Assembly (NCBI RefSeq): GCF_041146345.1
Contig: NW_027191413.1
Span: forward strand, 2,542,001-2,606,000
DNA length: 64,000 nucleotides
Reading direction: 5' to 3'
From: Neodothiora populina
Lineage: Eukaryota
Each line of letters opens with the position of its first letter. Positions within the stretch are counted from its first letter, which is position 1. Position numbers and translations under genes: made by a program. The notes below the pieces were generated by a model that made no database searches, was not told the DNA's origin, and saw only the letters and a program-made list of their open reading frames with translations. Positions 9,739 to 17,774 of the stretch are shown piece by piece.

Positions 9739-11106
9739 ATGACTTCCAGGCCCACCGTTACCATCATCTCGGCCGATGGCTCTGCCAGCGAGGCCAGCCA
9801 CCCTCTGCCCAATGTCTTCAAGGCTCCCATCCGCCCTGACATTGTCCAGTACGCACTTTTCCCGCCCTCTCTGGGCAAAAGACGAGAAAAAGAGACACAA
9901 GGACACAATGGCTGATGTAGCGCAGGTCGGTCCACACTGGCATGGCCAAGAACAAGAGACAGCCTTACGCCGTGAGCGAGAAGGCCGGTCACCAGACCTC
10001 TGCTGAGTCCTGGGGAACTGGTGCGTGAATCCAAATCTGCCACACCTTTTGCGATTTCTGCAGCAGGCAAAACGCCAAGGATAGCAAAGGTGCAAAACTC
10101 GGACACTCTTTTCTGACTTGTGCGCTCAACAGGTCGCGCTGTCGCCCGTATCCCCCGTGTCTCCGGTGGTGGTACTCACCGTGCCGGTCAGGCTGCCTTC
10201 GGTAACATGTGCCGTTCCGGTCGCATGTTCGCCCCTACCAAGGTCTGGAGAAAGTGGCACCAGAAGATCAACCTTGGCCAGAAGTGAGCAATTCCATTCG
10301 AATAGACGCACCACAAAGACAATTGACTAACCTCGACCTCCAGGCGTTTCGCCACTGCTTCCGCCATCGCTGCCTCTTCCAGCGCCGCTCTCCTCCTTGC
10401 CCGTGGCCACGAGGTCGCCACCGTCCCCGAGGTTCCTCTTGTCATCTCCTCGACCGCTTTCTCCAACGCCGCTGTCGCCAAGACCTCCGCCGCCCTCGCT
10501 CTCCTGAAGGCTGTCGGTGCTGGTGCCGACGTCGAGAAGGTCAAGGCCTCCAAGAAGCTCCGCGCCGGCAAGGGTAAGCTCAGAAACCGCCGCCACAGAC
10601 AGCGCCGCGGTCCCCTCGTCGTCTACAACCCCGACGAGGATGGAAAGGAGCTCGTTCGCGCTTTCCGCAACATCCCCGGTGTCGAGACCTCCCCCGTCTA
10701 CAGCCTGAACCTCCTCCAGCTCGCCCCTGGTGGTCACATCGGTCGTTTCATCGTCTGGACCTCATCTGCCTTCCAGGCTCTTGACAAGGTCTACGGCTCC
10801 ACCACCGAGCCTTCCGCCCTCAAGAAGGACTTCCTCCTCCCCTCCAACTCGGTCGCCCAGCCCGACATCGCCAAGCTCATCAACAGCAGCGAAGTCCAGG
10901 CCGTCCTCCGCCCCGTCAAGGGCAGCGCCATCACCAAGCGCCACCACGTCCAGAAGAAGAACCCTCTCCGCAACAAGCAGATCCTTCTCCGCCTCAACCC
11001 ATACGCCTCGGCTTTCTCCAAGGCTGGTCTGGGTCAGGAGAAGATCTCCGAGGGCAAGCCCAAGGCTGTCGACGAGACCTTCAAGACTCTCCTTCACGAG
11101 AACTAA
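9739..11106 (+). CDS. RPL4: 60S ribosomal protein L4 (uL4); introns 9849-9925, 10021-10132, 10284-10343
   Basis: Spliced sequence [109 protein letters not shown]. Strong C-ending codon bias. Confidence 0.98.
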
Positions 11107-12575: not shown

Positions 12576-13952
12576 GCAGGAGACGGCGTGGAAGAAATGT
12601 CTCCTCTCATCTAGCACATCACAAACCCTTCGTCTCAGTCTTCGCATCTCAGTTTCCACACCAAGGTCCCGAAAGAATAGCAGAACAGGAAGCTGATTGA
12701 ACAGCATTGAAGAGAGGAGGACGGACAAGGTAAGATAAAGGCAAGGCAGGCGACTGAAAGCACTTGATCAACCACGTTCGGTCAATCCATCTCATCAAGG
12801 GAAGGAAGCAGATAATCAGAAAGAATAGAAGAAGGACTGGAGTCTTCGTCTAATCGCATGACCAAGTCCAGTATTTGAGATCATCCTGTGAATGGTTGCA
12901 ATATGAGCTAGCAGCGCAACGCATCGCGAGATATTTCTGAGAGCATTATTGATCCGTCTTTACATAACGTCGAGAGCAGATATCACGAGTAAAGACATGT
13001 ACAAATGATAGAAAGAGAGGAAAGGAAGATAGCGCGACGAATATTGATACACGAAAATCTGCCTGACTGGACTTTTCTCGAAAGCTCGCCGCCTTCCGAG
13101 CCACCCAGGGGTTTGGCAATACTTTTCTTTTCTTCTTACGTACCTTACTTATCCTTTGTCGTTCCTCTTCCATCGCAGAAGGGCAGAGTGTGGATCAGAA
13201 AAGAAGGATGCGAAGAGCAACGCTATTCGATCCATAGGAAAAGAAACTGATGACAAAAAAAAAGAAGAAGCCATGTGTTTCTGTCCCTTTCGCGCTTTTG
13301 GTTCTCGCCCCATGGCGCGCCCATGCGTGGTGTACCAGCCGATCCCACTTCATTCCTATCTCTTACACAAGCAGCGAGCAACGACGTCTTTGTTCATGTA
13401 CCCTGCCAAACCTTTCTTCTGACCATTTTTTTTCCTTTTTGCATTTGCGGGGCAGCAAAGGTAAAAAAGTGATATCATCTCTCGCCCAATTTTCGTGCAA
13501 TCGCTGATGACTGGGATCGTCTTCCAATCCTCAAGAAACTCTCGTCTGCTATTCTTGGTCTTTACCCACATGGCAATCCTGAGTAGATACCTTACTCTTA
13601 CCCTTGACGCCAATTGATAGGGTTCAAACGATAAACTGATTGATTGACTGCAGATATGAAAAAGAAGAAGACGGGGGAACTCTGTACCTCCTTAACCTTT
13701 TTGAGATGTTTTTAATGATTTTTGTGTGTATTGTGTATTTTCTCCTTTTTTGTGTTGATCGAGTGGTGAGAAATGTCCCGAGTGCCTTTTCATCTGCGCA
13801 TTCTCTGTTAGTTCACTCCTCAGCAATTTTTTGTTGCAAGTCGAGTAAGAACAGTAGTGCCACAGACAGCCAGAGCAAAATCGCGGCAGCAGAATCCATC
13901 GATCCGGGTATTCGTGGAAGAAAGCAATCGTCCAAAGGGAGAGATTTGACTC

Positions 13953-15386
13953 TCAGTATCGCCTTTGCTTGCGAGAGTCGTCATACCCGCCGCTGCCTTC
14001 GTAAGGTCTCTTGCGGCTGTCGAATTCGCGGTCGCGATCACGGTAACTGCCGCCTCCAGAAGAGTAGTCACGAGGAGGTCTGTCGTTGTACCTTCCACCT
14101 CCACCACGGTCACCTCCGCCGCGATCGCCTCCGTACGAGTCACCTCCTCCGTAAGACGGTCGGCCACCGCCGTAGCCGCCACCACTGCGGTCACCGTAGC
14201 CACCACGATCGACACCGCCTCTGCCACCTCCAAAGCCGCCTCTTGGACCAGAGGGGGCACCTTCAGGAGCGAAGCCGTTGGACTGGTACCCAATGCCGCC
14301 CCTACCCCCTCCGTAACCGCCGCCGCCGCCACCACCTCCTCTTCCTCCACCGAAGCCACCGCGATCACCAAAGCCTCCTCCTCTGCCACCTCTGAAACCG
14401 CCACCGCCTCCTCTGAAGCCGCCTCCAGGACGGAAGCTTCCAGGACCGGCCGGCGGGGCTGAGGTGATGGGACGCGTCGGCATGGCTTTGGTGTAGTGAC
14501 GGCCGCCAAGACCACCTCCGTACATTCTCGGTCTCCATTCCTTGACGGTGCGGCCACGCTCAACATCGACCAGGACACGGCGATCCTTGATTTTCAGACC
14601 ATCGGCATCCTTGTAGGCGGCTAGACGAGTAGTGTGTCAGTTGACAATGAATTGGCATACTCACGAAGCGCATAGGACAGCGCAGCTGGCTGGGCAAGGG
14701 GATCGGGTTAGTATCTTACCCTTCATGTCACTGTCACGCTCGAATACGATGAATGCATAACCTTTGTTCTTCTGCTTCTTTGGGTCTGAGCTGCGCTCGT
14801 CGCCGACGATGCGAATCTGTGTAGGATGGTCAGAAAATGATATAGAGAGATAGCCAGAGACTTGTTTGAGACGTACGTCTGCGATGGGACCGTAACGGCC
14901 GAACTCGCGCTCAAGATCTCTCTTGTCAATGTTGTAGTTGAGACGGCCGACAAATAGAGTCTTGAGCGGGTCGCCTTTGATGTTTGGATCTTCTCTTGGG
15001 TTGTCTGGTAGTGAAATCGATCAGCGATTCATCCAGATCTATTGGCATGTGTAGGTTTCGGCGTACAGTCATTCTTGTAGCCCTCGGCAGTGCGGTATCT
15101 AGCAGCCTCCAAAGTCTCCAATCTCTCCCTGTCTTTTCTTTGTAGCCAGGATTCGGTAGGCTGATAGTGGTCATCCCAGGCCTCCTCCTTCACATGCTGC
15201 AGGAATTGAGCGACTCCTTCGATTTTGTGAGTGCGACGATCTTCGGGGGCGTGGTCGGAGGGAGGGAGGTAACGCAGCGCTGGACGCGGCGCGAACAGCT
15301 GCAGTCTAGAGGGACACGAGTTAGTGAGTGTTTGTCAATGCCAAACACTAAAGCACATACAGCTGTGGGGGGAGCTTGTCTGTCAT
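13953..15386 (-). CDS. SNP1: U1 snRNP 70 kDa protein (U1-70K); introns 15306-15360, 15005-15066, 14817-14876, 14621-14719
   Basis: Spliced sequence [112 protein letters not shown], followed by an RGG/RD tail. Confidence 0.96.
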
Positions 15387-15706: not shown

Positions 15707-16336
15707 ATGCCTCTACAAGCACTCAAGAAGACCGCCCAGAGCCAGGTACATATATTTGAATATACCAAACACACCTTTTCCCGGCATTCACTGACTTGTC
15801 TTTTTTTTGCCGCGACACAGAACGGCGTGGGCGCCTTCATCCTGCAATGCAAGCGTCTCGATTTCCACTACTGCGACTGGGCCGGATCATCCAAGGGCAT
15901 GAAGTAAGAATCTCTCCGTCTCCCGCCTCCAGTGCGCCGTTCAGAAAGCAGCCAACACCGACCGGGCCTTTCCACGAGAACGATCCTCCAGAAAAGAAAG
16001 TGGACCAAGACTCAGAACACTACTAATGACTACACTCAACACAGTTCCTTCCTCAAAAACACCCTCCCGCGCTTCGCAGCCCAGAATCCCCAAATAGAAA
16101 TCACCGTGTCGCCGCGCCCGCGAAAACACCCCGTGATCAAAGGAACCTATATCAACGGACGGGAAAAGGCCGTGTGCGTGCGCAACCTCGAGCAAGGCCA
16201 GATCCTGCAAAAGGCGCTACTGCTCAGAGACGCCAGTGGCGAGAAGCTGAAGAAGGTCACGAAACCCGTCAAGTCACTGAATGAGTCTGTGAGGGGTATT
16301 TGGGATCCTTTCCATGGGAACAAGTGGAGTATCTAG
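15707..16336 (+). CDS. MRPL51: Mitochondrial large-subunit ribosomal protein mL43; introns 15746-15820, 15904-16044
   Basis: Spliced sequence NGVGAFILQCKRLDFHYCDWAGSSKGMNSFLK..FAAQNPQIEITVSPRPRKHPVIKGTYINGREKAVCVRNL matches the L51/S25/CI-B8 domain. Confidence 0.92.
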
Positions 16337-16874: not shown

Positions 16875-17774
16875 CTAAGCAGAGTTGGCGTTGATGATGT
16901 CGACAAAGGCAGGCTTGAGCGAAGCACCACCGACGAGGAAACCATCAATGTCCTTCTCCTTGGCGAGCTCGCTGCAGTTCTTCTCGCTGACCGATCCTCC
17001 GTAGATGATTCTGGTCTTCTCCGAGGCCTCGGCGCTGACCTCCTTGCTCAACCATTCGCGGATGGCGGCGTGCACATCCTGAGCCTGCTGTGTGGTGGCG
17101 ACCTTGCCGGTGCCAATGGCCCAGATGGGCTCGTATGCGATGACAATCTTGCTCCAGTCCTTGACCTGGTCGGCGACAGCCTTGAGCTGAGCGGTGACGA
17201 CCTCGATAGTCTTGCCGGCCTCACGCTCCTCGAGCGACTCACCGCAGCAGAGGATGACGCTGAGGCCACCGTCAAGGGCGGCCTTGGTCTTGCTGGCGAC
17301 AAAGGCGTCGGTCTCCTTGAGCACGACACGGCGCTCACTGTGGCCGAGAAGGGTCCAGGTGACACCGGACTCCTTGAGCTGAGAGACGGAGATCTCACCG
17401 GTGAAGGCACCGTTGGGCTTGTCGAAGACGTTCTGGGCTGCGATCTCGAGGCCGGAGCGGAGGTGCTCACGGGCGAGGAGAAGGTAGAGCGCAGGGGGTG
17501 CAATGACGACCTCTGTTACACAAAGCGGTCAGCAAACGTAGAGCCCAATCTCGTACACCACGCCAGCTCGCGAAGAGCTCACATGCCTCACTCACCAGTC
17601 TTGGAGTCGAGCTTAGCGTTGTTGAGATTCTCGATGATGCTCTTGATCGTGTCGACCGAGCCGTTCCTGTGGTCTCGCTGTCAGCACGCTGTGTTTCTAA
17701 CCTATTTGGACACCTCGTGGAGAGACGGGCACCTACATCTTGAAGTTACCACCGACGAAGAATTGACGAGCCAT
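16875..17774 (-). CDS. TPI1: Triosephosphate isomerase; introns 17667-17736, 17513-17595
   Basis: MARQFFVGGNFKMNG, LGHSERR, IAYEPIWAIGTGK, DGFLVGGASLKP. Confidence 0.98.

What the first reader, a model, noticed from the sequence alone, without database searches (positions are those of the whole stretch)
14621..14719. Nested splice-signal cassette in the last U1-70K intron: candidate autoregulatory poison-splicing switch
Seen: on the minus strand the 99-nt intron reads GTAAGA-TACTAAC-ccgatccccttgcccAG-ccAG-ctgcgctgtcctatgcgcttc-GTGAGT...CTGAC...TAG. A perfect TACTAAC branch point abuts the normal donor. It is followed by a pyrimidine tract with two AGs and then a second consensus donor (GTGAGT at 14664) that defines its own 44-nt intron. 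Using the inner donor adds 55 nt, shifts the frame inside the RRM and reaches TGA about 20 codons later. The TACTAAC/AG is too close to the normal donor to pair with it, but could serve the upstream donor (14876) to make a 21-25 nt mutually exclusive exon, or act as a decoy. Known: animal (U1C-dependent poison exon) and plant U1-70K genes are controlled by unproductive splicing. Inference: this is a compact fungal U1 snRNP-sensing equivalent at the DMK|AAYK junction.
Basis: partly seen in the sequence, partly recalled or inferred. Interest (0 to 1): 0.75.

Follow-up and report, generated by a model that had tools for sequence, protein, structure and literature searches.

The report
Decoy splice site in U1-70K intron
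A fungal gene for the splicing protein U1-70K keeps an extra splice-start signal, probably too cramped to be used, in the same intron that throttles the human gene, which suggests an old self-limiting switch, although no RNA data yet show that it works.

Summary
The sequence is as described. The 99-nt intron corresponds to human SNRNP70 intron 7, home of the U1C-dependent poison switch. The nested signals are conserved: an inner GTRAG donor occurs in 8 of 17 sequence clusters of this intron, against 1 of 26 other U1-70K introns. It always lies 16-27 nt above the only usable branch point, whereas introns in this genome are enriched only from about 36 nt. The TACTAAC is 11 nt from the normal donor. 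The best reading is a U1-bound decoy that blocks splicing, giving retention and a premature stop, rather than a spliced poison isoform. The mutually exclusive exon idea fails in relatives with no upstream intron. Outside the finding, the 3' region of these genes carries sense-strand donor arrays (GGTAAG 57 versus 3 antisense, 22 loci), also in lineages that lost the intron. No junction, NMD or U1 dependence was shown. The element is patchy: Pleosporales-like loci lost the intron. The scan noted this decoy before on another fungal genome (e1-7701078). New variant of a known kind; interest 0.6.

The parts
15361..15386 (-). U1-70K coding exon 1
   Evidence: product identical to P0001
15067..15305 (-). 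U1-70K exon 2 (U1snRNP70_N domain)
14877..15004 (-). U1-70K exon 3 (start of RRM)
14817..14876 (-).
14720..14816 (-). Exon 4, 97 nt (IRIV...DSDMK plus 1 nt), counterpart of human exon 7
14621..14719 (-). Intron 4, 99 nt, phase 1 at DMK|AAYK; counterpart of human intron 7
14714..14719 (-). Productive outer donor GTAAGA
14707..14713 (-). Inner branch motif TACTAAC; branch A 14708 is 11 nt from the outer donor; same arrangement in L011
14686..14706 (-). Pyrimidine tract with two CAG acceptors ending at 14690 and 14686
14665..14689 (-). Pseudo-exon of 25 or 21 nt between the inner acceptors and the inner donor
14657..14664 (-). Inner donor GTGAGTAT, the proposed U1 decoy, 27 nt above the terminal branch A; its TGA (14663-14661) is the in-frame stop on intron retention
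14636..14641 (-). Terminal branch motif ACTGAC, branch A 14637
14621..14623 (-). Productive acceptor TAG
14560..14562 (-). TGA reached if the inner donor were spliced (201-aa product)
13953..14620 (-). Exon 5 coding part (end of RRM, RGG/RD tail)
13560..13605 (-). Block of donor-like sites after the stop codon (GTAAGA 13601, GTAAGG 13595, GTAAAG 13565), alignable with L011; weak local form of the 3' donor array

Best explanation
The intron holds a miniature, mostly unspliceable copy of the vertebrate exon-7a layout (branch site, optional AG, then a 5' splice site) that acts as a U1 snRNP-bound decoy. Shown from sequence: the inner donor is conserved and sits 16-27 nt above the only usable branch point; the inner branch motif usually sits 11-25 nt below the real donor; retention puts a stop inside the RRM. 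Inferred: U1 on the inner donor, perhaps steadied by branch-binding factors on the inner TACTAAC, crowds U2 off the terminal branch point or forms an abortive complex, so the intron stays in and the RNA is lost to NMD or nuclear decay. Inferred by analogy with the human gene: complete U1 particles (with U1-70K and U1C) occupy the decoy better than incomplete ones, which closes a negative feedback loop. The donor arrays after the stop codon would be a second U1-reading arm of the same control.
For: Position: human primers place the start of exon 7 at the IHMVY codons and run exon 7 to ERDMH plus one base, with KIDGRRVL in exon 8; these align with fungal exon 4 and the DMK|AAYK junction. Conservation: inner GTRAG in 8 of 17 clusters versus 1 of 26 control clusters; donor plus inner branch motif 6 of 17 versus 0 of 26; Fisher P 0.0006 and 0.0013 after dropping two short-intron loci. 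Geometry: all 18 inner donors lie 16-27 nt above the branch A; own genome shows 43 observed versus 41.7 expected at 16-27 nt but 168 versus 62.5 at 36-53 nt; control introns have at least 34 nt apart from L014; a published Pezizomycotina search model uses a spacer of at least 25 nt, against 6-17 here. Retention gives an in-intron stop in 15 of 15 clusters (shuffle mean 11.5, P 0.011; controls 12 of 25). The intron is longer than control introns (median 98 versus 59 nt) and is the only coding-region intron found in 14 loci with a complete N-terminus. In the human switch the regulatory donors are bound by U1 but little used. The same genes keep donor arrays after the stop codon, unspliced in a probable cDNA contig.
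Against: No junction, retention level, NMD or U1 dependence was observed. The inner donor is missing in 9 of 17 clusters, and 12 Pleosporales-like genomic loci have lost the intron, so the element is dispensable. Seven database proteins read through this intron in frame without a stop (P0052, P0056, P0091, P0126, P0128, P0141, P0145), so retention is not always a premature stop. Two distant lineages share a YAG plus exactly 8 nt before the inner donor, which looks like a real microexon. The inner donor often matches U1 as well as or better than the outer one, so plain U1 shortage need not relieve it; the loop needs the untested U1C-type asymmetry. The distance limit was measured in one genome only. 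The 80 loci were the best of 429 by tblastn, which favours intron-poor genes, and related loci are not independent.
Confidence: 0.5

Rival explanations
1. The inner signals are really spliced: the inner donor extends exon 4, or a microexon is included, giving a frameshifted NMD target, as the first reader proposed and as human exon 7a does at low level.
For: The inner piece is 41-46 nt long in 10 of 18 introns, near the lower edge of intron lengths here (from about 44 nt; 42 nt in the published model). A frameshifting 8-nt microexon is possible in L017 and in six Mycosphaerellales-like loci, and in L017 the upstream piece is a normal 56-nt intron. Four database gene models appear to use an inner donor (P0050, P0051, P0060, P0066), but these may be ab initio.
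Against: Donor-to-branch distance is 16-27 nt in all 18, with no excess of introns at that distance. The inner piece is only 35-38 nt in 8 of 18. Extension is in frame and stop-free in 3 of 14 loci. No YAG follows the inner branch motif in 8 of 16 introns. In the window the first piece cannot be spliced from the normal donor (11 nt).
Confidence: 0.22
2. A conserved splicing brake that is not a U1-70K sensor: the decoy lowers or delays splicing constitutively, or answers another factor or stress.
For: All conservation and geometry evidence fits equally well. Lineages without the inner donor carry other conserved features, a G[GA]GCT-like motif after the branch point in 6 of 15 clusters versus 1 of 25 controls and a shared element in Sordariomycete read-through peptides, which suggests several unrelated brakes.
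Against: The element is a U1 target in a U1 protein gene, at the position of a proven U1-dependent switch, and the gene carries further U1-type sites after its stop codon.
Confidence: 0.15
3. A neutral relic or chance: remains of two introns around a lost microexon, with no present function.
For: Patchy distribution, complete intron loss in Pleosporales-like loci, decay of the inner donor between close loci L002 and L030, and no genome-wide enrichment of the motif word.
Against: Consensus donor and branch motifs persist amid otherwise diverged intron sequence in at least three orders, in a 12-nt window above the branch point; the protein lacks no residues at this junction relative to human.
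Confidence: 0.1
4. A mutually exclusive exon: TACTAAC and CAG are used with the upstream donor at 14876, replacing exon 4 by 21 or 25 nt.
For: A branch point hard against a donor is the classic steric arrangement (recalled, tropomyosin type); the window and L011 have the upstream intron.
Against: 13 of 14 loci with no upstream coding-region intron keep an inner branch motif; L011 offers only a GAG; the 25-nt form is in frame, so not an NMD target; the inner donor would still face the 27-nt limit.
Confidence: 0.03

Closest known systems
Vertebrate U1-70K (SNRNP70) intron 7 / exon 7a switch (Rosel-Hillgartner et al. 2013, PMC3798272; abstract, results parts 2-3, passages, supplementary files 2 and 8 read)
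   Same: Same gene, same intron position; acceptor-type signals followed by a donor-type site; the human donors bind U1 but are little used; the unproductive form has a premature stop.
   Different: The human intron is 3,162 nt with a spliced alternative acceptor at about +642 and three clustered donors. The fungal intron is 57-128 nt with one inner donor; the inner acceptor is unusable from the normal donor in the window and absent in half the cases; the decoy sits directly above the productive branch point. U1C dependence is untested.
Rous sarcoma virus NRS decoy 5' splice site (PMC3082916; passages)
   Same: A U1-binding site that is not spliced, competes with the real donor and forms abortive complexes with the acceptor.
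   Different: Viral, SR-protein assisted and structured. Here the inferred block is spacing, and no conserved fold was found.
SRSF5/srp2 unproductive intron retention shared by animals and fungi (Lareau and Brenner 2015, PMC4379411; passages)
   Same: A splicing-factor intron at an animal-fungal shared position, long for a fungus, with a stop on retention.
   Different: Different gene; NMD was shown in Neurospora; its intron sequence was not notably conserved, whereas here discrete signals are. U1-70K and SNRNP70 occur 0 times in that paper's main text.
Arabidopsis U1-70K sixth-intron retention (PMC545797; passages)
   Same: Unproductive U1-70K transcripts through a retained intron.
   Different: Its position relative to the fungal junction was not tested.
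U1 sites in terminal exons: papillomavirus late 3' UTRs, mammalian U1A mRNA (PMC5071671, passages); 5'SS-motif nuclear retention needing U1-70K (PMC9074902, abstract)
   Same: Donor-like sites after the stop codon read by U1 through U1-70K; the model for the 3' arrays seen here.
   Different: Described in viruses and mammals; distance to the fungal poly(A) site is unknown.
Stwintrons of Pezizomycotina (PMC9024468; methods section and passages)
   Same: Two sets of splice signals in one fungal intervening sequence.
   Different: No splice element is interrupted here and both halves fall below the spacing of that paper's search model.

Membership tests
Vertebrate U1-70K exon 7a switch | Located in the U1-70K intron between the exons encoding RNP1 and the end of the RRM | tested here: met
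   Human primers bound the exon 7/8 junction to between ERDMH plus 1 nt and KIDGRRVL; alignment puts the fungal junction at the first of these points. The exact human base was not shown by any search.
Vertebrate U1-70K exon 7a switch | An alternative 3' splice site that is spliced to the normal donor | tested here: not met
   Branch A is 11 nt from the donor in the window, against about 36 nt or more in this genome; no YAG in 8 of 16 introns with an inner branch motif. L017 alone has normal spacing.
Vertebrate U1-70K exon 7a switch | A cluster of several regulatory 5' splice sites downstream of that acceptor | tested here: not met
   One inner GTRAG per intron in the cluster representatives that have any.
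Vertebrate U1-70K exon 7a switch | The unproductive form carries a premature stop | tested here: met
   Retention gives 182 aa and inner donor use 201 aa in the window; exceptions in some database proteins.
Vertebrate U1-70K exon 7a switch | U1 binding, U1C dependence and NMD of the unproductive form | not testable with these tools
   Needs RNA and knockdown data.
Stwintron | An internal intron interrupts the donor, branch or acceptor of an external intron | tested here: not met
   Neither inner CAG is followed by the rest of a donor, and removal of the 44-nt piece leaves an 11-nt donor-branch spacing.
Sterically enforced mutually exclusive exons (definition recalled) | Branch point of the second exon too close to the first exon's donor | tested here: met
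   11 nt.
Sterically enforced mutually exclusive exons (definition recalled) | A common upstream donor and two interchangeable exons | tested here: not met
   No upstream coding-region intron in 14 loci; 21-25 nt cannot replace the 97-nt RNP1 exon.
Decoy (pseudo) 5' splice site, NRS type | Consensus donor bound by U1 but not spliced, lowering use of the real donor | tested here: inconclusive
   Consensus and sub-minimal spacing shown; binding and non-use not testable.
Terminal-exon U1 site | Donor-like sites in the mature 3' UTR that stay unspliced | tested here: inconclusive
   Arrays enriched and unspliced in one probable cDNA contig, L044; poly(A) sites unknown; weak in the window itself.

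The most novel reading that the evidence does not exclude
U1-70K self-control through U1-bound decoys at this intron dates from the animal-fungal ancestor. Filamentous ascomycetes shrank it to an unspliceable virtual exon that works by spacing alone, and lineages that weakened or lost it rely on an array of U1 sites after the stop codon. The two arms look inversely distributed: mean 1.2 GGTAAG per 600 nt in 9 loci with an inner donor versus 3.5 in 13 without (related loci, not independent). One feedback loop would then have moved between splicing and 3'-end or export control.
Probability: 0.25. Interest if true: 0.8.

Novelty: new variant of a known kind. Interest (0 to 1): 0.6.

Why it matters
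It would extend a spliceosome homeostasis loop shown in human, mouse and zebrafish to fungi at the same intron, a second cross-kingdom case beside SRSF5. It would do so in under 100 nt, which makes the question of how a core snRNP measures its own assembly testable by point mutation and spacer insertion. The 3' donor arrays point to U1 control of 3'-end formation or export in fungi, which my searches did not find described.

Tried and rejected
No relative genomes are held and the metagenome contigs could not be extended. Prokaryote and viral collections gave one non-informative locus and none. Conserved RNA structure: rejected as a common mechanism; z was -0.33 for the window and between -1.9 and +2.0 for 19 of 20 introns, only L036 reaching -3.3. 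A U1 stem-loop I mimic (loop motif recalled): GATC in 5 of 15 clusters versus 3 of 25 controls, contexts unrelated; rejected. Stwintron and mutually exclusive exon: rejected (see membership). The control using other ORF ends within the metagenome loci appears contaminated by alternative-frame ORFs that end near the U1-70K stop and was discarded. One of 18 peptide signatures (P0038) is a likely false hit. Rows dropped: spurious gaps in L042-L046, L050 and L051 from control introns; L014 and L071 (33-35 nt introns, unplaced) from the Fisher tests, not; L054 and L074, whose contigs end inside the intron (L054 shows GTAAGT 17 nt above a branch motif, L074 none in the part held). Paper searches listed no title or abstract opening on fungal U1-70K regulation; most subscription papers are not in that library. 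PMC13100119, PMC12179342 and PMC9767378 (passages) had nothing on it; PMC11291888 (abstract) gives the human donor-to-branch constraint only.

Full report
Gene and observation. The minus strand holds a five-exon U1-70K gene (15386-13953) whose 385-aa product is identical to P0001, labelled Neodothiora populina by NCBI; it is single copy in G000. Use of the inner donor gives 201 aa. Retention gives 182 aa, and its stop is the TGA inside the inner donor itself. The 21-nt mutually exclusive form gives 146 aa, but the 25-nt form is in frame, 361 aa.

Position relative to the human switch. Supplementary Table S5 of PMC3798272 has a cloning primer that starts exon 7 at the IHMVY codons, an exon 7 primer that ends at ERDMH plus one base, and an exon 8 primer over KIDGRRVL. 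Alignment to human U1-70K maps these to the start of fungal exon 4 and to the DMK plus one base junction. The human intron 7 is therefore at, or within nine codons downstream of, this junction; no call gave the exact base. In humans an alternative acceptor is activated by U1 bound at downstream cryptic donors, which are themselves little used, and the product is degraded by NMD. Arabidopsis retains a sixth intron; its position was not tested.

Conservation. A metagenome scan kept the best 80 of 429 relatives. Thirty-two have a complete intron at this junction, two end inside it, and 12 Pleosporales-like loci that keep another intron have lost it; the rest show no intron here or end before it. 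With the window, 33 introns form 17 sequence clusters. An inner GTRAG occurs in 8 of 17 (shuffle mean 0.53, none of 5000 reaching 8), against 1 of 26 clusters of other introns of the same genes; inner donor plus inner branch motif occur in 6 of 17 against 0 of 26. Without L014 and L071, Fisher P is 0.0006 and 0.0013. Carriers fall near Neodothiora (L011, with the same donor-abutting TACTAAC), Mycosphaerellales-like proteins (L002, L018 group, L048), Chaetothyriales (L003 group, L009, L017) and one unplaced locus, L049. Database proteins that run into the intron give weaker, indirect support: 8 of 52 end in Trp, as TG|GTAAG would produce, and the Delphinella peptide repeats the window's first residues. 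These rows are related and not independent.

Geometry. In 800 kb of the own genome, consensus donors are not in excess 16-27 nt above a branch-acceptor module (43 versus 41.7 expected) or at 28-32 nt (14 versus 17.4), but are at 36-53 nt (168 versus 62.5, agreeing). Control introns have 34 nt or more apart from L014. A published Pezizomycotina search model uses at least 25 nt between donor and branch hexamers. All 18 inner donors lie 16-27 nt above the branch A, a spacer of 6-17 nt. Inner branch motifs lie 11-25 nt below the outer donor in 14 of 16, and no YAG follows them in 8 of 16. Both halves thus look too short to splice, and what is conserved is the position of the donor. Its use would be in frame and stop-free in 3 of 14 loci, while retention gives an in-intron stop in 22 of 22 loci tested and 15 of 15 clusters (null 11.5, P 0.011). 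Against this, seven database proteins read through the intron without a stop, and a frameshifting 8-nt microexon is possible in two distant lineages.

Mechanism. The most likely reading (0.5) is a U1-bound decoy directly above the productive branch point that blocks or stalls assembly, so the intron is retained and the RNA destroyed. It would work like the RSV NRS decoy and share site and logic with the vertebrate switch, but it fails two defining features of that switch and is not filed as a member. Occupancy, steric block, NMD and the feedback sign are inferred. A spliced poison form (0.22), a brake that does not sense U1 (0.15), a relic (0.10) and the mutually exclusive exon (0.03) remain. 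The last is weak because 14 loci with a complete N-terminus have no upstream coding-region intron and 13 of them keep an inner branch motif; 5' UTR introns were not checked. No common fold was found.

A second feature outside the finding. In the 600 nt after the stop codon, 22 loci (the window and 21 others, chosen from the 34 as non-redundant and long enough) hold 57 sense and 3 antisense GGTAAG in 13,049 nt; shuffles expect 2.4, and upstream DNA has 1 in 5,885 nt. After 213 long ORF ends in the own genome the mean is 0.075 and none reaches three. One site is invariant in an alignment of six Pleosporales-like and two Lecanoromycete-like loci. L044 lacks a 74-nt intron present in the 97-99% identical L068 and L069 and carries the array unspliced, so it is probably a transcript contig. 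Loci without the inner donor have more sites (3.5 versus 1.2), a suggestive pattern among related loci. In the window the array is weak: one GGTAAG and three GTAAG (about 2% of random 600-nt windows reach three), in a block at 13605-13560 that aligns with L011. Terminal-exon U1 sites act through U1-70K in viruses and mammalian U1A and in nuclear retention. This makes a U1-reading role for the intron site more plausible but does not show it.

Novelty. Ten paper searches listed nothing on fungal U1-70K regulation; the library lacks most subscription papers, and only two of eight supplements of PMC3798272 were read. The scan has noted a conserved decoy in this intron on another fungal genome (e1-7701078) and donor arrays in animal U1-70K introns (e1-7591842, e1-7469124); I had recorded my reading before seeing them. 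Verdict: a real, conserved, lineage-patchy element; new variant of a known kind; interest 0.6.

Noticed in passing
window 13605-13560 (-); 600 nt after the U1-70K stop in L001, L004, L006, L036, L038, L056, L057, L067, L068, L075, L077, L079 and others: Sense-strand arrays of consensus donors after the stop codon (57 versus 3 GGTAAG in 22 loci), often behind pyrimidine tracts and with GTTTGT-type sites like human regulatory site B; present where the intron is lost; unspliced in probable cDNA L044.
   Followed up: partly
P0179, P0189, P0196, P0197, P0201, P0217, P0225, P0231, P0233 (Sordariomycetes): Gene models that run into the same intron share ALKLA or WPSSLP/RPSSLP, two frames of what looks like one conserved intronic DNA element; no DNA was available.
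   Followed up: no
intron 4 of L017, L031, L032, L036, L056, L077: A G[GA]GCT-like motif a few nt after the terminal branch point (6 of 15 clusters versus 1 of 25 controls); in L056 it pairs with the outer donor in the predicted fold. Absent from the window.
   Followed up: partly
window 14817-14876 (-): Intron 3 is 60 nt, in frame and stop-free; retention would add 20 residues inside the RRM (405 aa).
   Followed up: no
window 14722-14692 (-) and L011 intron 4: In the predicted fold the outer donor pairs over 7 bp with the pyrimidine tract and puts TACTAAC in the loop; in L011 the same stretch pairs with the inner donor instead. Folding z-scores are not significant.
   Followed up: partly
L017 and L018, L019, L022, L023, L025, L048, intron 4: YAG followed by exactly 8 nt and then the inner donor in two distant lineages: a possible frameshifting microexon.
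   Followed up: partly
L002, first 100 nt after the stop codon: Two donor-like sites each followed within about 15 nt by a branch motif, the same cramped spacing as in the window's intron.
   Followed up: no
intron 4 versus control introns: Branch-to-acceptor distance is longer in this intron (15-32 nt in 15 clusters) than in control introns (9-22 nt).
   Followed up: no
window 10327-11106 (+), 15908-16336 (+), 16875-17528 (-): Neighbouring ORFs look like ribosomal protein L4, a mitochondrial ribosomal protein transcribed divergently from U1-70K, and triosephosphate isomerase (names recalled from the translations, not searched).
   Followed up: no
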